Positions 2,104-61,739 of a stretch of DNA of 64,000 nucleotides are shown here, piece by piece (position 1 is the stretch's first letter; each line of letters opens with the position of its first letter). The stretch is from Callorhinchus milii (Eukaryota). The notes below the pieces were generated by a model, which had not been told where the DNA came from, ran no database searches, and saw only the letters and a program-made list of their open reading frames with translations. The stretch is taken from assembly GCF_018977255.1 (NCBI RefSeq), contig NW_024704745.1, forward strand, positions 39,804,001 through 39,868,000, written 5' to 3'. A program made the translations under genes and the position numbers.

Positions 2104-5100
2104 TAAAAATGTTCAATCAGTCTTTGAAGTAATAAATACATGTACCTCTCTAGAGATGTAAAGTCTGACATGTTGAAAATTAAGGGAATGCAATTTTACA
2201 ATCTTTTTAAATGATGTAGTTTTTATGTAAAAAAATGAATAAGGTTTAAAAGAAGCATTTCTTATGCTGTAATTTTCAAGCACACACAGACAGCCCTGGA
2301 ATCAAATTTCACCTTGAGTTGGTCATTGTTACTATTTGTTCATTTCAATTGTGTCTTCTGTGGAAAATGTCATACGCAATGAGTAAATGTCACGATCCAG
2401 AAAAACAAAAGGTTAATAACACCCGTTGTCTCAGGTCGGTTTGAAAATCCCACACATTTCAGTCATGTAGCCTAATAGAGTTAAGCCCACAGAAATAACT
2501 TTAGTGATCAATAAAGATTAAATGTTCTACCTTATGATGGCTCTGCAACTTTTGTTCTGTCCTCTGTGTGCTGGAAAATTATCATAAAATTTTTAAAGAT
2601 GTCCTCAGTGCAGAATATATCTATAAAATATTAAATATTCAATTTTCCTCTATCATGGCTGGAAACATTCATAATTATATGATGATTCACATAATAACTC
2701 ATTCTGAAAAGTCATAAATGGCACTCCCTCTGCGACAAAGTTAATAATTTACTGCCATTCAGGATTTTTCTCTGTGCAGTGTTGGTCTTGTGAACATTTA
2801 TTAAGCAAATGTTCAGTTGAAGAGGTCAAAATCTGAACCACGCTTTCCAGAACAGTAGAGTAAGTCTTTAATGAGGACTGACAGACAGGTGAGGTAAAGT
2901 TAGACATTCTTTAGTTTTGTCAAGAATATCTTTTTTATATACTGCTCGCACAAAGAATGAGAAACTGTTAGAAAATGATCTGACAAACATTAAATTGCAG
3001 TGCACTCCAGTTTATTTATCATATTTTTCTACCCTATGAAATATATCAGGGAAATGGGTGCAGTTTCCTTAAAATGGCACCTAACAGGAATGAATTCAAA
3101 TGAAATATTTGAAAAGGGAATTTTAGTGAAATCTTTTTCTTTTCTGTAGTTCATTGCTGTGGTTGCAATGATTTACTCCTTAGAGTACTGTTTTCCTGGA
3201 TGCTTTGAAAAGACTTAGAGGGTTTATGGCTCACAAGGTCTGTGTTAAAACAAATCTTTCTTACTCCGGGATTGAATACTGCCAGGCAAAATACCATGTG
3301 TGAACAGTTAATCACTTACAGAATTCAAAGGCCAAATGGTTGTTTCAAAGTCAAGTTTATTTTGATGTGAAAAATGTGTAAAACGACTTTTTCCATGTTT
3401 TCCAAAGGGTGAAATAGTAAGAATACAAGCCATATTTCATTGCCCAGCATTCAAATGCTACAGGCAATGAATTTTCCAGTGTCCTTGGTCTCAGAGCAGA
3501 GCGATACAGTCAGTGTGACACCACCTTTTTCTCAAGGCAACATTTGACTGGGATGTGACCACATTTCACAAACTAACATTCACACTCTCCTCTAGAGTGA
3601 CATTTCAGTTAAAAACACTAGGAATAAAAATAAGAATAAAAACAGCCATCCCAGGACTCACTTCCACTTCCCAGCTATGTGGTTCACAGTGTGTGCTTTT
3701 TGGTGCATACTTCACAACTGTTGATACGCCGTCAAGAATTGTATGAAATGTTGTAAACATCCCGGTACCACTCCTGCACACCTTGTTATAATGACTCTCA
3801 AAAACCCACTGACTCTGTGGCCCTCATTCATTTTTAAAGATGGCTAAATTCAAACATTAATTATTTTTCTCGCCGTCTTTGCGTCATTAAACAAATAACA
3901 GACACGTTTCATATTGCTAGGATTTGAAAGTCTCTTGTTTCTTTCAGCACAATAAAAACAGGCAGATTTATGTATATTCATTAATTTCTTAAACACACTT
4001 TTATCTTTCCATTGGTTAATGTAATCCTAATGGCTTGGGAGTATGCGGTAAAGGATGCAGAAGCAGAACACCATTAAATCATCTCAAAATGTGTTCATTC
4101 TTAAAACGATTTGAAGAATTAGAGAACATTAAAATTAATGACTGCTAATTATTATTATATCAAGCCTGAAATTCCACCTAGTTTTAGCTTGTGAGACTAT
4201 TTTGTTTTAAGGCAACATGGTCTTCCAGGCTGAAAGTGGATAGAATTTTAGGTCTCTGGTTCATAATTCTGCATCACCTAGCATATATTCAAGAAACGAA
4301 AAATGGGCTGAGGAACAAGATAAAAAATAAAGCTGCAGCAAGCAATGTAATGTCTGTTAATTCTCGGTTATTGGTAGGTGTGTAAAACATCAATGTACTT
4401 CAAAGCTAATATAGAAAATGTGATACATTTATAATTAGAGGGTTTGAATTTAGTATATAAAGGTCTTCAACTATTCAAAGCGCTGTCCTTAATATACACA
4501 TTTCTGGTTTGTATTGACTATTTAGCAGAACAAAGAGGACAGTAATTGCTTACAGTTGCATTTAAAAGCTTTGTATCAGTGAAGACCTTGGGGAAATCTT
4601 CTTGTTTCATTTTGAACATTGTGTGGGAAAAGGCAGAAGAACAATGTGATTAGAGGTAATAGGTGTACAGCAGGATTCCTGAGCACAAGCTGAGACATGT
4701 CAAATGATAGAAATGTTCATTTTCTTAACATTAGAAATTTTCAGTCACTCAGTCATGATAACCACACATGACCACAGCTGCACTCTCTGTGCTATCAACT
4801 CCTGCAACTATTTGTCCATTATCGCTCTTCTCGTGCACAATCTCAGCCCTCACCTCTGGCCTTTCATGTAATATTCTCCTACATGGAACCCGTTCCATCC
4901 ATCTCATTATACTGATCTTCAGACTTAGAGCACTTTCTTATCCTTTATACTTCATCTACTTTCATCCTGTCTATTTTATCAAGCAATACAATATAACCCA
5001 TTGAGTCTTTGACTACTTCATTAAACTTTAAGTGTTCAGTACCTTGTTATGTATGACAAGTACTGCAGTACGGTATTCCAAATAATAATTTTATCTTGAT

Positions 5101-17109: not shown

Positions 17110-17735
17110 GAGGGTCAGCCACAAAGCCACATTTGTCTGACACATACAGAAATCCATCTCCATGCTTAAGAGTATCCAAACCAAACTGAGAGTTCCATGC
17201 ATCCCACCTCTGCATGAAAATTTCAGAGACATTATTGGAATGGAATGCACACTCTGTCCCTGGAGGGGACACATCCTGCTTCCCTAATTCTGAAGAGTGT
17301 TAGGTGCAGGGTGGCAACAGCCAGAGCGTGTGTTGCGGTACTGCTCGAGTCTAACCAGCTAAAACCGCATAGCTTGCCATTGAAAGTACTGTCTGTCAAG
17401 CTTTCCTCACTGCTTGTTCAGCTAGGACTACTCTAATCGCTAGGGCTTTGGGTTGCAACAACAACAAATTACATTTGTAAAGTGCCTTTCACTTTGGGAC
17501 GACTTCTCAAGGTGCTGGGTTAATGGGAATTGAGTCTCAGTCCCCAGGGACTGGTCTTCCCTTCCACATCCTGCTGATAAGCCAGGATGGCTGGGCTGTC
17601 ATCAGCAGTTTGTTGGAGTACTGTGGACCCGCATGGCTCAGGAAGTGGGTTAAGAGTTTGCTCGATTCTGACATTCTGCTGCTAAACATGTCACCCTGTA
17701 ACCCATTCAGCTCCAAGTAGACCCTGCTTACATCT
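17110..17735 (-). mobile_element. Copy of an unclassified RTE-group-like LINE derivative, interrupted by an L2 tail at ~17457-17516
   Basis: Aligns with 47115-47462, 57330-57870 and, inverted, 61045-61335; RT-like remnants VTCL..CQNRAN, VVLAE, FNGKLCG. Confidence 0.6.
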
Positions 17736-18309
17736 CTCCCCCAAGGAGAATAGAATAGTTTCATGTTGAACAACAGCGAATTCTGCCGTATCTTATAATT
17801 GCAGTTTAAGCATTCCCAAAACTGATTCAGACAAGTGTATGAAACCAGGAAGGGAGTCTTACATTGCACACTATATTGCTTTTTACTGACAGTGGCATGA
17901 CTGCTATTTAGCTGCAGGGATGTCAAACAATCATTCAGAGCTGTGATGCTTCTCACAGTGGGAAATTTAGCAAATATTTTCAATCTTTCTTATTGTGGGC
18001 TTTCTCAATACTAGTGTACATTTACAGTGTGTAATGCCAGGTAGAGTATTAACTTGTTAATCTTGAAATGTTCTTGGGAGGTTTTTAATGTTCTTAAAGA
18101 CTCTATGATTCATGGGGTCCTTTAACTGTTGAAGGGTAGTCAGACTAGGGAGAGGCTTGTGTCTCTGGGCTGATCAGTTCTGTATCTTTTCAGCTCATGT
18201 ACTGTGATGCTGAACCCGTCTTAATACCTAAATAATAATAACAGTCCTTGCATTTGATATGTATATGCTGGTCCTGGCAAAACCTTAGGCAAGTTACCTT
18301 AGTCCACAC

Positions 18310-19860: not shown

Positions 19861-20115
19861 AGCTTTACAGAATAGACTGTAAAGTGAATTGACCGTATAT
19901 TTGTGGGCGAAACGCGGCAGCCAATTGCACACAGCAGTGTCCCACAAACAGTCGTGGATTGAAAATGACCAATTTATTATTGTTTTGTTTCTTGGAGGGA
20001 TTATTATTAGGCGTGTGGAGTAAGGAAACTAGCCCAAGGTTTCACCCTGCCTGGAATTGAACCCAAGTGTCTCGCTTGCAAAGCGAGTGCTCTAACCACT
20101 GAGCTACAGGACTCC
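19861..20115 (-). mobile_element. tRNA-Ala-headed SINE, short form, lacking its tail
   Basis: Head and body match 38668-38920; the copy stops just before TTGAGACGTC of the tail. Confidence 0.9.
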
Positions 20116-21414: not shown

Positions 21415-21719
21415 CCTTGCATTTGATATAGCGCTTTTCACGTCGGGAGGACGTCCCAAAGCGCTTCACAGAACACACTGTAAAGTGAATTGACTGTATA
21501 TTTGTGGGCGAACGCGGCAGCCAATTGCGCACAGCAATGTCCCAAAAACAGTCGTAGATTGAAAATGACCAATTTAATTATTGTTTTCGGTTTTTGGAGG
21601 GATTATTATTAGGCATGTGGAGTAAGGAAACTTGCCCAAGGTTTCGCCCTGCCTGGAATTGAACTCAGGTCTCTCACTTGCAAAGCGAGAGCTCTAACCA
21701 CTGAGCTACAGGACTCCAC
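21379..21719 (-). mobile_element. Full-length young SINE, short form, inserted into an L2; TSD CAGGAT
   Basis: Complete head, body and tail with a long (ATT)n; CAGGAT at 21373-21378 and 21722-21727. Confidence 0.9.
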
Positions 21720-36060: not shown

Positions 36061-36435
36061 GGAATCCTGTAGCTCAGTGGTTAGAGCACTCGCCTCGCAA
36101 GCGAGAGGAGCTGGGTTTGATTCCTGGCAGAGCAAAATGTTGGGCATGTTTCCTTACTCCACCCGCCTCTGTTTACCTAGCAATAAGTAGTAACCTGGTT
36201 GTTAATCGATTGGCGGATCGCTTTTCTGTGGCAATAATCCCTTCAAAAAAAAATAACAAATTGGTCACTCAATCCATGACTGTTTGTGGGACACTGCTGT
36301 GTGCAATTGGCTGCTGCGTTTTGCCCACAAAATATATTAGTCTTTCCACTTTGCAGTATATTCTGTGAAGCGCTTTGAGACATCTCAAAGACATGATAAG
36401 GCACTATATCAAATGCAAGGAATATTATTATATAT
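36061..36435 (+). mobile_element. tRNA-Ala-headed SINE, long form
   Basis: A box TAGCTCAGTGG, degenerate B box, Meta-like segment, 3' Deu segment, L2 tail. Confidence 0.9.
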
Positions 36436-38667: not shown

Positions 38668-38987
38668 GAAGTCCTGTAGCTCAGTGGTTAGAGCACTCGC
38701 CTTGCAAGCGAGACACCTGGGTTCAATTCCAGGCAGGGCGAAACCTTGGACAAGTTTCCTTACTCCACACGCCTAATAATAATCCCTCCAAAACAAAAAA
38801 CAATAATAAATTGGTCATTTTCAGTCCACGACTGTTTGTGGGACACTGCTGTGCGCAATTGGCTGCCATGTTTTGCCTACAAATATACAGTCAATTCACT
38901 TTACAGTATATTCTGTGAAGCGCTTTGAGATGTCTAGAAGACGTGAAAAGCACTATATCAGATGCAAGGATTATGATTATTATTATT
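38668..38987 (+). mobile_element. Full-length young SINE, short form
   Basis: Intact A box and B box (GGTTCAATTCC), near-complete tRNA-Ala(TGC)-like cloverleaf at 38670-38741, body and tail. Confidence 0.92.
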
Positions 38988-38995
38988 TAGGCTAA

Positions 38996-39360
38996 GTGGA
39001 GTTCTGTAGCTCAGTGCTTAGAGTGCTCGTCTTGGAAGCAAGAGGATCTAGGCTTAATTCCTGGCAGGGCAAAATGTTGGGCAAGTTTTCTTACTCCACA
39101 TGCCTCTGTTTATTTACCAGTAAGTAGGAACCCAGTTGTTGGTCGATTGGCTGATCACTTTTCTGGAGATAATAATCCCTTCAATAAAATAATAATTTGA
39201 TCACTCAATCCACAACTGTTTGTGGGACACTGCTGTGCGCAATTTGCTGCCGCGTTTCGCCCCCAATAAACATAGTCAATTCACTTTACAGGATATTCTG
39301 TGAAGCACTTTGAGATGTCTCAAAGTCGTGATAAGGCGCTATATCAAATGCAATTATTAT
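38996..39360 (+). mobile_element. SINE, long form, head-to-tail with the previous copy
   Basis: Collinear with 36061-36435. Confidence 0.9.
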
Positions 39361-47114: not shown

Positions 47115-47462
47115 TGAGTCAGCCGGGTGTGTGACACATGCGGAAACCCATCACCATGTTTCAGAGTATCCAATCCAAGCTGAGGTATCCATGCAGCCCA
47201 CCTACACGTGGAAATCCCAGAGACAGATTGTTGGAAAGGAAATTGCATTCTCTGCCTGGAGGGACGCATCCTGCTTACCTAATTCAAGAAAGTATTAGGC
47301 GCAGGTTGAGAAGAGCCAAGGCTTGGGGACCCCAGAATGTGCATTGGGGTACTTCTGGAGTTTAACCAGCTAAAACCACATAGCTTCCCATTGATATTGG
47401 TGTCTGGCAAACTTTCCCACTGCTTATCCAGCTAGGATCACTCCTAGGCATTTAGCAACTTG
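47115..47462 (-). mobile_element. Copy of the unclassified RTE-group-like LINE derivative (3' part)
   Basis: Aligns end to end with 17113-17455. Confidence 0.6.
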
Positions 47463-56031: not shown

Positions 56032-56334
56032 GTGAGGAGTCAGTTTGTGATAAACAATGTCCATCTGGTAGTAGGAATGCACACAAATTCTAGAGATACT
56101 AGAGATAAAGTATATGTAAAAATCATAGTTTCCCAATAACCTATGTCATGCTTAATACCCCTGTAAAACAAACATCATTTCAAATAATCCATGTGGTATC
56201 CATATATAAACGAGAAAGGAGACTCTCCTAGTGTCCTGACCAACAATCCCTCCAAAACATTGATCACTTGCTCCATGGCTGTTTGTGGGATACTTTTGTG
56301 CACAAATTCGCTGCCATGTTGGGTCATTTATTAA

Positions 56335-56741
56335 TATTAATAATAATCCTTGCATTTGATATAGTGCCTTATTACATCTTTGAGATGTCTCAAAGCGATT
56401 CAAATAATATACTGTGAAGTGAATTGACTGTATATTTTGTGAGCGAAACACAGCAGCCAATTGCGCACAGCAGTGTCCCACAATAGTCATGGATTGAGTG
56501 ACCAAATTATTACCAAATCCAGACTGAGTCGTGGATTGAGTGATTGAGTGACCAAAATTTAAAAAAAAATTTTTAAAGAGATTATAACCACCTAAACTGC
56601 TATCCGCCAATCCACTAACAACCAGGTTCCTATTTACTAAACAGATGTGTGTGGAGTAAGCAAACTTGCCCTGCCTGGGAATCAAACCCAGGTCTTCTTG
56701 CATGCTGAGCGAGTGCCCGAACCACTAAGCTACAGGACTCC
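56335..56741 (-). mobile_element. SINE, long form, with an internal duplication
   Basis: Head, Meta-like segment and tail; ggattgagtgaccaaa is duplicated at ~56490 and ~56540. Confidence 0.88.
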
Positions 56742-57329
56742 TCAGGCTTGGAGATAAGCAGAGAAGGCCAGGGAAGGAAGAGTGTTCATGACATAAAGAT
56801 TGAAAATGCATTGAAATAATAAACCACCATATCCATTGCACCTTGCATCAGGTGATGTAAGTTGTGTTTTTTGCATGGAATATCCTATATATCAGGTCCA
56901 CTTGCAAGAATTTAGCCCCAGCCATAGATCACCTTAGAGCTGAGGTCTTGGGGGTTTGCATGGCTTACTGGGATTCCTTGCACCAAATACAATTTACGTT
57001 GTGAGGTTCTTTTTCCAACATGAGACACCAAAATGAGTTTGGTTGTTCAAGCAAATTCGCATTTCTTTGCCGTTTAGGAAAAATCACAGCAGTTTTTTTA
57101 TGTTTCTTATTTTTCTTAAAGTGGTTTCTTATATACACAGGAGACCATACAAGAAATCAATGGATAATTTACAGGACAAAAACAGGAAAAACTGTAATAT
57201 ACAGGGAAATTCTGGTCTTGAAGTGGAGACATGATTAAGAGTTAATTTTCTGTGCTAAGTATCCTGGCAATATAACATGTGTTATGCTGAATATTTAATA
57301 TCCTTTCAGGAAATATATTTTGTTTTGGT

Positions 57330-58800
57330 TGAAACATACAGAAACCTATTGCAAGGTTTAAGGGTATCCTAACCAGACTGAGAGTTTCACACATACAAGG
57401 CAACTATACATTCTGCATCTGGGGTGGAGTAAGCACTTCCTTCCCAGAAGAACTCGCCCTGCTTATCAAATTCTGAAACGTATTCGGTGCAGATTGGCAA
57501 GAACAAAGGCTTAAGGACCTTAAAGTGTGTATTTTGGTATTGCTGGAAGTTAACCAGCATACCTTTGCCATTGTGAATACTGTATATCAGGCCTCTCACT
57601 GGCTGGCCAACTACGACTACCCTACTCATTTAGGCTTTGGCTTGCAGGATTAAGAGGAGTTGAAAAATTCCTGCCCCCAATGACTGGTCTGTCCCTCAAA
57701 GTCCTACTGATGAATCTCTGGTTTGTTAATAGTAACGCAGGCACTCCCAGCTCAGGAATTTGATTATAGACACTGCCTCAGAGCGTTGGCTCAATACTGA
57801 CATTGTATTGCTGAGCACATCACTTTGGAGTTAGCTCAACCCAAAGGAGACCAGACTAATGTTTCCTCATCAAACCGCTAGCCTATAATGCATCCAATAT
57901 ATGTACAGTGACTTAATCAAGCAATAACTTAAGAGCCATTGAAATCACTAAGATTCCCTGGAAGTTCTCAGTCTCACTCAAGTTACCCTTGTGGATAGGT
58001 ACCACAATTTCACTCTGGAACACTGAAGGTGTTCAGACAGAATCCTTGTGACAAACTTTAGAAGGGCATCTCAAAGGCAAGTTGATGGTTCATGTCATTG
58101 AAACTGTAAGACTGTCGACATTCTTCACCACCTATTTCAGAGCAGCTTTTAGAAATTTGGCATTAATAGCGTCTGCACCTGCTGCCTTATCATTAGCAAG
58201 GCGACACCGTGCAGAGTCCACTTCCTCCCAGTGGACCTGATCATTAAAACCTTCAATCTGTTCAACACCTCCCGCCAGTTATTCCACCCTCCATGCAGAT
58301 GGTTCTCTGCTACAGCCTATTGGGTCAGACGCCAACTCCGCATAATACTCCCTTCTTACCACAAGGGTACTCTCATGGATCTGTGGTAGAGCACCGGACT
58401 TGTCCAACATTGGTATCAGCCTGGAGGGGCCCCTCTAGCCATCAACATGACAGACTTCATCCAGTGGAAGAAAGATTTGGGATCACTCTTGTGTAGTTGG
58501 GGTCCCTGACAGAGTGATTCAAGCCCTTATTTTCCCTAATAACCCTCTTAGCCTCATATTGTCATTGGTTGTAAAATACCTTTACAGTGGTCCTTGATTG
58601 CTCCAAGGAGGCTTCTACGATTATTTTAAAATCCCTCTGCTTTTGCCTAATAGCTCTCATCCCCGTTATAGTTAGCTTGACAGGATCCTGCTTTGTGGAT
58701 AAATGACTCACAGGTTGTAGCTTCAGTTTGCTTACAACTTCAGCTGCAAGAAGGGTCAGGAGTTGTATCACAATTCCATTATTCTTCCAGGTCCTGCTCT
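57330..58800 (-). mobile_element. Decayed non-LTR retrotransposon ORF2, RTE-group-like, not L2/CR1
   Basis: Minus translation across stops and frameshifts: DPKSFFHWMK, PMLDKSG, EYYAELASDPIGCSREPSAW, WEEVDSA..LANDKAAGADAINAKFLK, EPST..DALLKFV, VVPIHKG.L...ENFQGI..IS..LKLL. Confidence 0.75.
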
Positions 58801-59714
58801 AATGCATTGTGATATAATTGGATTACAAAACATTTATGCTATCCATGTAAATCACAAAGAAGTTGTGTATTTTGGAATGCGATAGTCACTAACACAATCT
58901 CAGAATTCAGATGAAAGTTCCAAACCAATCATGTCTGTTTGTGTTAGAGTTTAAGTTTAAGAATATAAGAAAGCATGGACTGAGAAAAGGACATTCAGCA
59001 CATCAATTCTACCTCTTTCACAGACTATGGATAATCTGTATATTGTGTAATAGACTCAGTACCATCCATTTAATCTCCTGAGAAAAAGTTCCAGGTCAAT
59101 ACTCCATGATTTCCAAATATGGATTAAAGAGAGACAAAATGGCAGAAATGTGATCCATCTGTTGATCTCCAATATTGAACCCTGACTTGCTGCTCACCTC
59201 AGACACCAGTTCCTCTTCTCCCTGCCTGTTGAGCACATGAATTAGTCCCTTTGAGGTGTTCTTGACCAGACCAAATTGTTACTCCACACAGCATATCTTT
59301 ACTAGTGATATGAACAACAAATATTTACTTTATGTCAAAGGATTTATAAGCTGTGTTTGCTGATGCTAACATTTTTCAAAGTGCAAGGACTTGTGAAACC
59401 TCTGAATTTTAGGAATGGTAAATTACTTTTCAGAAATGAGAAGTGCACCAAAAAATTAAAGATTGTAAGGAGAGTGTTAAGGCAATAACACAGTCATTGG
59501 GTTCTGATGAGTTGTAAACACAAGAATCCTGTTAACACAATTTTTATTTTCATCAGAACTCATAGCTAAGCTACTACTAGATAATTTGCTCTTCTCTTCC
59601 ATTAATATACATTCACTAATTTTTTATTGAGTTGGATTTATTTGTTAGAAGATATCATTGCAAAATAGTAATAATTGTTTTCTGCCAGTAATAGGATTTT
59701 ATTTCCCGATCATT

Positions 59715-60170
59715 CTAATAATAATCCTTACATTTGATATAGTGCCTTATCATGTCTTCAAGATGTCTCAAAGCGCTTCACAGAATATACTGTAAGGTGA
59801 ATTGATTGTATATTTGTGGGCGAAACAAAGAAGAATCCTTCATACGATATAGTGCTGATAATGTTGAGAGCATCTCAAACCACTTCAAAATGCTTCTGTA
59901 GAGTACAGTGACTGTATATTTGTAGGCAAATGTGGCAATCAGTTTTCATACAGCAATGTTCCATGAACAGTCACAAATTGAATGGATTTCATCGGGAGTA
60001 TTGTTGGTCAGCATACTGAGAGAATCTCCTTTTTCTTTTCGAATAATGGCATGGGATATTTAATGCCCACCGGAACAGGCCAACTAGATTTTGGTTTAAT
60101 GTTTCATTCATAGGACAGCACCTCTGACAATGCAGCACTCCTCAGCAATGCACTGCAATGTTAGGCTATT
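59715..60170 (-). mobile_element. SINE tail fragment followed by an old Deu-domain SINE
   Basis: Young tail at 59715-59825; Deu core (tggcatgggatatttaatgcccacc...ggacagcacctctgacaatgcagcactcc) at 59830-60170. Confidence 0.8.
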
Positions 60171-61428: not shown

Positions 61429-61739
61429 ACAATGGATCTAATTGCATCCATAATAGTATTCCGCTGCTTGTCCTGCAAAGACCACCCATTACGGCTTTGA
61501 CTTGAAGGGTTAACAGGAGCTGAGTGGGAAGAATCCCTACGCAATGACCAGTTTGCCCCTCCAAGTCCTATCAATGAGCCTGCGGACCCACTTGCTTCAG
61601 GAATCGGAACATTGAGACCACTGCAGAGGATTGACCAAATTCCGACATTCAATGCATGTCACCTTGGAGCCTGTTCAGCTTCAAGGAGACCACATTTACC
61701 TTCCAACAGGGAGGATAGTGTCATTTTTCAGATCAGAAT
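61429..61739 (-). other. Candidate exon of an unidentified host transcript
   Basis: Unique, GC-richer island; acceptor ttttcatttcAG at 61741-61740; possible donors AAG|gtaaat (exon end 61700) and TGT|gtaaat (exon end 61429); long stop-free frames on both strands. Confidence 0.3.

What the first reader, a model, noticed from the sequence alone, without database searches (positions are those of the whole stretch)
57847..58800. Fossil LINE of an unusual lineage, with motifs recalled from fungal and microsporidian RTE-group elements
Seen (minus strand, through stops and frameshifts): DPKSFFHWMK - PMLDKSG - EYYAELASDPIGCSREPSAW (58291-58350) - NDQVHWEEVDSA..LANDKAAGADAINAKFLK (~58148-58245) - insertion ending EPSTCL*DALLKFV - VVPIHKG.L.ETENFQGI..ISMALKLL (~57920-58005) - L*ASGLMRKH*SG. 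Known: KAxGxDxI..FLK and VVPIxKKG..NYRGI are N-terminal RT motifs of APE-type LINEs, and GI rather than PI is RTE-group-like, unlike the L2/CR1 here. Recollection, not a search result: the LAxDxxGxSRxxxxW linker, WxEV and the PxT/S-containing insertion after FLK match ORF2 proteins of early-diverging fungi (e.g. Smittium) and microsporidia. Inference: an under-described LINE clade in this fish lineage, either anciently inherited or horizontally acquired, perhaps via a parasite. This is the best candidate for novelty in the window.
Basis: partly seen in the sequence, partly recalled or inferred. Interest (0 to 1): 0.7.

Follow-up and report, generated by a model that had tools for sequence, protein, structure and literature searches.

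The report
Dead microbe-type LINE with RRM-like head
This is a broken copy of an old, abundant jumping gene (a LINE) whose protein groups with relatives from a gut fungus, a microsporidian, a nematode assembly and many unnamed environmental eukaryotes rather than with the animal's other LINEs; it likely arrived by a very old horizontal transfer, but no donor was found and a fungal or parasite source is not supported.

Summary
Observation confirmed. Window 57318-58748 (minus strand) is a 5'-truncated LINE with about 1.46 kb of its RT core missing. Its family is extinct and high-copy in G000. Copies are 10-36% from the family model, and the same insertion lies in two related organisms.

The family was about 4.4 kb with one ORF: an 80-aa domain predicted to fold like an RRM, then APE, RT and CCHC, and a poly(A) tail. 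Its RT groups (100/97) with a lineage of intact single-ORF elements (about 30-36% identity), apart from RTE-, RTEX/Proto2-, Tx1- and CR1-like outgroups, whose labels are mine. Named members: Smittium culicis, Trachipleistophora hominis, Acanthocheilonema viteae and one EukProt protein.

However, no tree nests the family among the fungal/microsporidian elements, and sisterhood is unresolved (AU p=0.004 and 0.21). Ancient transfer is plausible but unproven. Repbase-labelled references were unavailable, so it may already be filed as 'RTE-X'. The scan found this family before on at least eight other stretches of this genome.

The parts
57843..58748 (-). 5'-truncated ORF segment: EN-RT linker and RT N-terminus (family model 1099-2017), with several stops and 7 frameshifting indels
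   Evidence: (74.4% over 927 columns)
57843..57857 (-). Junction that skips about 1,457 nt of the element (RT core to CCHC); 14-nt overlap of the two alignments (imperfect microhomology); lands in a zone where many 5'-truncated copies begin
   Evidence: same spacing in organism C contig
57622..57857 (-). C-terminal end of the single ORF; stop codon 57622-57624
57327..57621 (-). 3' UTR (about 330 nt in the family model)
57318..57326 (-). Worn A-rich tail; no clear target-site duplication left for this copy
17134..17753 (-). Another 5'-truncated copy of the same family (3' end only, 73%)
47118..47452 (-). Another 3'-end copy (89.6%), with a 9-nt target-site duplication candidate
   Evidence: L261
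61056..61338 (+). 3'-end fragment of the same family (77%)
61461..61719 (-). Fragment of the same family's ORF end (68%)

Best explanation
This is a dead, 5'-truncated, internally deleted copy of an extinct high-copy LINE family whose RT groups with a distinct lineage of single-ORF elements (predicted RRM-like domain, APE, RT, CCHC) found in microbial and other eukaryotes, and the family likely entered the host's ancestors by a very old horizontal transfer from an unidentified donor. SHOWN: the family, its domain order, poly(A) ends, variable 5' truncation, 8-12-nt target-site duplications in some copies, the insertion shared with two related organisms, and placement outside the host's RTE/CR1/L2/Tx1-like elements. 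INFERRED from general LINE biology: one polyprotein bound its own RNA (the N-terminal RRM-like domain would stand in for a separate ORF1), the APE nicked DNA, and the RT copied the RNA from the 3' end by target-primed reverse transcription. INFERRED: the RT often stalled 350-650 nt from the 3' end; it usually stopped there, and here it likely jumped upstream on the template through microhomology, giving the 1.46-kb gap. INFERRED, weakest: horizontal origin. Odds: about 0.9 for LINE identity and lineage, about 0.45-0.5 for a horizontal origin.
For: Family: 46, 45, 48, 36 and 40 matches among at most 40 scored candidates per search. First-look candidates rise from 32 (5' end) and 107 to 1,908 (RT) and 8,820 (3' tail); these are not copy numbers. 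RVT_1 on copies. No intact copy seen: longest open frame 221 aa among the family loci; least K2P 0.095 among 79 loci. Whole-ORF match to intact proteins reaches 35.6% over 1,134 aa (586 bits), against 167 bits for the best of 8 host outgroups. The motif Q-GF-x3-EEC is in 131 of 156 full-length relatives, all 4 named ones and 0 of 8 host outgroups; the CCHC is in 152 of 156. The RT tree of 47 rows gives the lineage 100/97. AU rejects host+RTE-like (p=0.0003) and host+RTEX/Proto2-like (p=6e-7). Eight copies share a 5' start about 100 nt before the first ATG, leaving no room for a separate ORF1. The N-terminal domain is in 150 of 162 long relatives and in the host model at E 2e-6. It folds beta-alpha-beta-beta-alpha-beta at pLDDT 95; best matches GUCT Z 9.9 (rmsd 1.8, 71 aligned) and TRMT2A RRM Z 9.4 (rmsd 2.5, 73 aligned). 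12 of the 30 best 3'-tail loci begin at model 3446-3486, where this junction lands. 28 of 79 loci carry joins with different breakpoints. No vertebrate name appeared among the hits listed or the clusters looked up.
Against: No close donor: highest RT identity is 51-52% (P0238, unnamed), and the lineage is star-like. Only 4 eukaryote-source names were seen (plus one metagenome contig labelled as a bacterium); most hits are unnamed. Decayed vertebrate elements would not be in protein collections, so the lack of vertebrate names is weak. One named relative is from an animal assembly (A. viteae, on a 3,971-nt contig; contamination not excluded). It paired with the host family at 96/88 but not. Copies span a wide age range (non-CpG K2P 0.078-0.28), so this was long residence rather than one burst, and it is old enough for vertical descent to stay open. 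With few outgroups, host+RTE was not rejected (p=0.30). ACT domains match the N-terminal model almost as well (Z 8.8), Foldseek gave no match at E<=0.001, and RNA binding is untested. The folded domain came from a relative (P0012), not from the host. Loci were chosen by best score, which biases the divergence and deletion counts.
Confidence: 0.5

Rival explanations
1. Same lineage, inherited vertically from early opisthokonts or metazoans and lost or decayed in most animals; it lasted long in this slowly evolving genome and died out around the split from organisms B and C.
For: Deep star-like tree with no close donor. Members in fungi, a microsporidian, a nematode assembly and a EukProt protein. 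Heinz et al. (PMC3486916, passages) infer that microsporidian non-LTR elements were ancestral in that group. Copies are as old as or older than the A/C split.
Against: No vertebrate-named intact member among listed hits. No second related family surfaced in G000: after the decayed family, the hits are RTE-, CR1- and L2-like.
Confidence: 0.3
2. It is a family already catalogued under a known clade label (RTE-X by best hit, or Deceiver or Proto2), so only the placement is loose and nothing is new.
For: Curated single-ORF EN-RT elements of Ectocarpus are filed as RTE-X on best blastp to RTEX-4_NV and RTEX-1_BF (PMC12477816 supplement rows). Chytrid LINEs are labelled LINE/RTE-X (PMC9926174 passages). 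RTEX relics exist in vertebrates (PMC5753468, PMC9004415 passages). A C-terminal CCHC is shared with RTEX-like outgroups.
Against: No esterase ORF1. Separate from motif-labelled RTEX/Proto2-like rows. I did not test whether the Ectocarpus or chytrid elements belong to this lineage.
Confidence: 0.3
3. Transfer specifically from a microsporidian or early-diverging fungal parasite.
For: Smittium and Trachipleistophora proteins are in the lineage. Microsporidia have exchanged transposons with animals (PMC4202319 passages), and a fish microsporidian expresses non-LTR elements (PMC3749934 passages). Sisterhood was not rejected (p=0.21).
Against: Their subclade excludes the host family in all five trees (support 97-100 where given). 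It was rejected (p=0.0044). They score lower (346-362 bits) than unnamed relatives (up to 586 bits).
Confidence: 0.1

Closest known systems
Non-LTR elements of Trachipleistophora hominis (P0052) and Smittium culicis (P0278); the microsporidian group treated as monophyletic in PMC3486916 Fig. S5 legend, no clade name given in the passages seen
   Same: Linker motif, insertion after the KAxGxD helix, Q-GF-x3-EEC, RGI, W-x-M..KC, C-terminal CCHC; same supported RT lineage; 28-32% identity over 758-1,149 aa
   Different: Separate subclade; no close identity; host family extinct and GC-rich (54%)
RTEX / RepeatMasker LINE/RTE-X (e.g. RTEX-4_NV, RTEX-1_BF; vertebrate L4, L5, ALINE; Ectocarpus RTEX-1/2_Ec32)
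   Same: APE-RT with RGI and C-terminal CCHC; the Ectocarpus families are also single-ORF; the likely label an automatic tool would give
   Different: No separate esterase ORF1; a fused RRM-like N-terminal domain instead; outside motif-labelled RTEX-like rows in the tree; poly(A) tail, against C-rich ends in Ectocarpus
RTE / BovB clade
   Same: One long ORF without a full ORF1 (PMC3905857 passage); RGI motif
   Different: CCHC and N-terminal domain present; RT placement rejected; 25-27% identity to host RTE-like ORFs
L1 / Tx1 (human L1 ORF2p is the best PDB match of the lineage profile, E 2.5e-80)
   Same: APE-RT-CCHC order, poly(A) tail, 5' truncation; L1 ORF1p uses an RRM (PMC3905857 passage)
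   Different: Single ORF with the RRM-like fold fused to the endonuclease; RGI rather than RPI; separate branch

Membership tests
APE-type non-LTR retrotransposon (LINE) | Non-LTR reverse transcriptase | tested here: met
   RVT_1 above cut-off on L005 and L003; core deleted in the window copy
APE-type non-LTR retrotransposon (LINE) | Apurinic-like endonuclease N-terminal to the RT | tested here: met
   GDWN and SDH motifs in the family model, which aligns through the domain to relatives with PF03372 (29 of 29); one copy's EN-end stretch alone gave no Pfam hit
APE-type non-LTR retrotransposon (LINE) | 5' truncation, A-rich 3' end, target-site duplications | tested here: met
   candidate duplications of 8-12 nt in 8 of 30 loci; none visible for the window copy
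RTE / BovB | No or rudimentary ORF1 | tested here: met
   single ORF; feature from PMC3905857 passage
RTE / BovB | RT groups with RTE elements | tested here: not met
   AU p=0.0003; not rejected with sparse outgroups, p=0.30; RTE labels are mine, from recalled motifs
RTE / BovB | No C-terminal CCHC (recalled feature) | tested here: not met
   CCHC in the host model and in 152 of 156 relatives
RTEX (RTE-X) | Separate ORF1, with esterase in described members (PMC3905857) | tested here: not met
   about 100 nt before the first ATG; N-terminal domain is RRM-like
RTEX (RTE-X) | RT groups with Repbase RTEX references | not testable with these tools
   no labelled references could be fetched; stand-ins labelled by recalled motifs were rejected as its group
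Proto2 | RT groups with Repbase Proto2 references | not testable with these tools
   the defining paper was not held; stand-ins only
Deceiver (fungal clade) | RT groups with the Laccaria Deceiver element | not testable with these tools
   only the name and count were seen (PMC3411680 passages)
L1 / Tx1 | Two ORFs and RT grouping with L1/Tx1 | tested here: not met
   single ORF; separate from two Tx1-like rows; no AU test run
Smittium / microsporidian LINE lineage (broad, unnamed) | Shared motifs, domain order and supported RT clade | tested here: met
   (100/97); weaker with sparse outgroups (95/63)
Smittium / microsporidian subclade (narrow) | Host family nested inside it | tested here: not met
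   subclade excludes it
Smittium / microsporidian subclade (narrow) | Host family sister to it | tested here: inconclusive
   AU p=0.0044 against p=0.21
Horizontally transferred element | High identity to an element of a distant species | tested here: not met
   best RT identity 51-52%; expected to be lost at this age
Horizontally transferred element | Patchy distribution among animals | not testable with these tools
   no other eukaryote genomes could be searched; present in related organisms B and C
RRM domain | beta-alpha-beta-beta-alpha-beta fold with RNA-binding surface | tested here: inconclusive
   fold met; ACT and GUCT tie with RRM; no Pfam RRM hit in 29 members; binding untested

The most novel reading that the evidence does not exclude
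An unnamed, eukaryote-wide LINE clade with a one-protein design (RRM-like domain fused to APE-RT-CCHC) crossed from a microbial eukaryote into the ancestor of a cartilaginous-fish lineage in the Palaeozoic and left thousands of copies: a cross-kingdom invasion of a vertebrate germline by a clade missing from current classifications.
Probability: 0.27. Interest if true: 0.72.

Novelty: new variant of a known kind. Interest (0 to 1): 0.42.

Why it matters
The copy itself is inert. The lineage matters in two ways. It appears to be a large, diverse LINE group (149 rows under about 62% RT identity in my sample) that automatic tools probably fold into 'RTE-X', and its fused RRM-like domain offers a test of how a LINE works without a separate ORF1. 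If it proves absent from other vertebrates, it would be a rare old transfer into a vertebrate from outside the animals. Because these insertions are shared between related species, they could also serve as phylogenetic markers.

Tried and rejected
Pfam on window frames read with X: nothing (one search was partly in the wrong frame). IMG/VR scan: 41 pattern matches, none confirmed. The ESM Atlas gave only generic RT/EN clusters with no taxa. Cluster look-ups named a eukaryote for 1 of 19 proteins. Rfam on the window found five tRNA-like matches and nothing in the element. The 3' tail does not fold better than shuffles (z -0.5). Pfam and PDB sequence searches of the N-terminal domain found nothing consistent. 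No RNA holder was listed; two RNA-guess runs held only 80-90% matches to repeat parts and none of the flanks, which says nothing on expression. A non-autonomous subfamily sharing this deletion was rejected: all 29 joins have different breakpoints. The first careful tree (66 rows) did not finish, and the quick tree was used. Ten literature searches listed no paper naming this lineage or reporting it in a vertebrate; the library lacks most subscription papers, and Repbase/Dfam could not be searched. The clade-defining paper of Kapitonov et al. 2009 was not held, and Novikova et al. 2009 was seen only as a citation.

Full report
1. Observation. All motifs are present on the minus strand at the stated places. 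Intact database proteins hit the stretch at up to 67 bits, against at most 31 bits in 20 shuffled windows. Pfam finds nothing on the window itself because the RT core is missing.

2. The family in G000. The stretch is one copy of a repeat family (46 matches from 40 scored of 1,676 candidates, 67-79% identity). Copies elsewhere carry a non-LTR RT. From 90 loci, 11 dropped as overlaps or duplicates, I built an in-script family model and extended its 5' end with further loci. The element is about 4.4 kb. Eight copies start within about 15 nt of each other, and the first ATG follows after about 100 nt. One ORF of roughly 1,300 aa runs through an N-terminal domain, APE, RT and CCHC, followed by a 330-nt 3' UTR and a short poly(A). 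Candidate counts rise steeply towards the 3' end (32, 107, 1,908 and 8,820), as expected from 5' truncation. Eight of 30 tail loci show 8-12-nt duplication candidates. No intact copy was seen, whereas L2-, CR1- and RTE-like elements with long open frames are present.

3. The window copy. It covers model 1099-2017 (58748-57843) joined to 3474-4045 (57857-57330), with 7 frameshifting indels in the first part. About 1,457 nt are missing, with a 14-nt overlap at the join. 28 of 79 loci show such joins, all at different places (29 joins). 12 of 30 tail loci begin at 3446-3486, where this join lands, so I infer an RT stall and a template jump at insertion; a later deletion is not excluded. Four more 3' fragments lie in the window, among L2 and CR1 relics and tRNA-like matches.

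4. Age. One 3,230-nt contig in each of two studies of organism C covers both flanks and the element with the same spacing, at K2P about 0.13 (an underestimate, since two poorly aligned parts are left out). A contig of organism B bridges the 5' junction (58490-58948). Insertion and gap therefore predate the A/C split. Copies lie 0.078-0.28 (non-CpG, median 0.12, 79 best-scoring loci) from the model, against about 0.067 per lineage since the split. The window copy belongs to a loosely supported older group (SH-aLRT 86-89). The host looks like a cartilaginous fish from its repeat make-up (recalled, untested; earlier scan notes say the same). If A and C were of different chimaera families, which split about 187 million years ago (PMC12952989, passage), activity would date to roughly 200-450 million years ago. 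That dating is conditional; I did not identify the organisms.

5. Relatives. An RT-core copy found 754 representatives at E<=1e-10. The top ones are intact single ORFs of 1,200-1,400 aa, about 30-36% identical over the whole length, mostly from metagenome contigs without names. Named members are Acanthocheilonema viteae (P0201), Trachipleistophora hominis (P0052), Smittium culicis (P0278) and EukProt Gb_02072 (P0023; the tag style recalls Ginkgo, not checked) (only the best 120 of 1,520 hits were listed). Shared traits are tabulated.

6. Placement. Host LINEs and metagenome LINEs served as outgroups; their clade labels are mine, from recalled motifs. With sparse outgroups the lineage had support of 96, 91 and 95/63, and host+RTE was not rejected. 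With 21 of the 80 metagenome loci added, support is 100/97, apart from RTE-like (99/96), RTEX/Proto2-like (90/90), Tx1-like and CR1-like rows. Host+RTE-like and host+RTEX/Proto2-like are both rejected. Inside the lineage the tree is star-like. Smittium and Trachipleistophora form a subclade without the host family in every tree. Forced sisterhood gave p=0.0044 and p=0.21. The pairing with the nematode protein (77-96) dissolved.

7. N-terminal domain. An 80-aa domain precedes the APE in 150 of 162 long relatives and in the host model (E 2e-6). Folded from a relative with 29 rows, it is beta-alpha-beta-beta-alpha-beta at pLDDT 95. Best matches are GUCT (Z 9.9) and an RRM (Z 9.4), with ACT close behind (Z 8.8); Foldseek gave no match at E<=0.001. 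An RNA-binding role replacing ORF1 is an inference.

8. Literature. Seen as passages only: PMC9004415, PMC4202319, PMC4007536, PMC3749934, PMC7846101, PMC5753468, PMC10294476, PMC3486916, PMC3411680, PMC9926174, PMC3905857 and PMC12952989. PMC12477816 was seen as passages plus supplement rows. All other papers were seen as search listings only. None of the passages names this lineage. Single-ORF algal elements and chytrid LINEs are filed as RTE-X, in the algal case with a best-blastp note; whether they belong here is untested. The tree figure and sequences in supplements of PMC3486916 and PMC12477816 were not examined and could bear on the name.

9. Verdict. This is a real and unusual LINE lineage for a vertebrate, probably distinct from canonical RTE and RTEX, with a one-ORF design. 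The copy is dead, the origin is unresolved, and a parasite donor is unsupported. The scan has noted the same family on at least eight other stretches of this genome; those notes are not independent support. Interest 0.42.

Noticed in passing
window 57610-57640 (-); L181 ORF end: The ORF ends in a short hairpin-like motif (GCCC-N4-GGGTAGGG) that is conserved at DNA level in one distant marine-metagenome relative (L181) but not in L182, L183 or L185; it may explain the x-P-x-G-stop ending of many relatives. This part draws by far the most matching contigs.
   Followed up: partly
G000 loci L261-L290: 5' truncation points cluster in two zones of the family model, about 3446-3486 (12 of 30) and 3642-3726 (about 12 of 30).
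   Followed up: partly
window 20042-20113, 21644-21715, 36067-36130, 38670-38741, 39000-39072: Five tRNA-family Rfam matches, probably SINE heads.
   Followed up: no
window 56330-56800 and 59716-59890: Extremely high-copy short repeats flanking the element, with very large numbers of matching contigs in all four runs.
   Followed up: no
L182, L183, L185, L187: AT-rich and divergent in-lineage elements from metagenomes; L185 branches at the base of the lineage. Hosts not determined.
   Followed up: partly
P0199: An intact member of the lineage is deposited as a protein of a Gammaproteobacteria MAG, likely eukaryotic DNA in the bin.
   Followed up: no
G000 small contigs: L097, L104, L112, L134, L138: Near-intact RTE-like, Crack-like and Tx1-like ORFs sit mostly on small unplaced contigs, while L2 and CR1 sit on the large ones; could be young families or foreign DNA.
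   Followed up: no
L014/L015, L037/L038, L052/L053, L279/L280: Near-identical locus pairs, i.e. segmental duplications or assembly duplicates.
   Followed up: no
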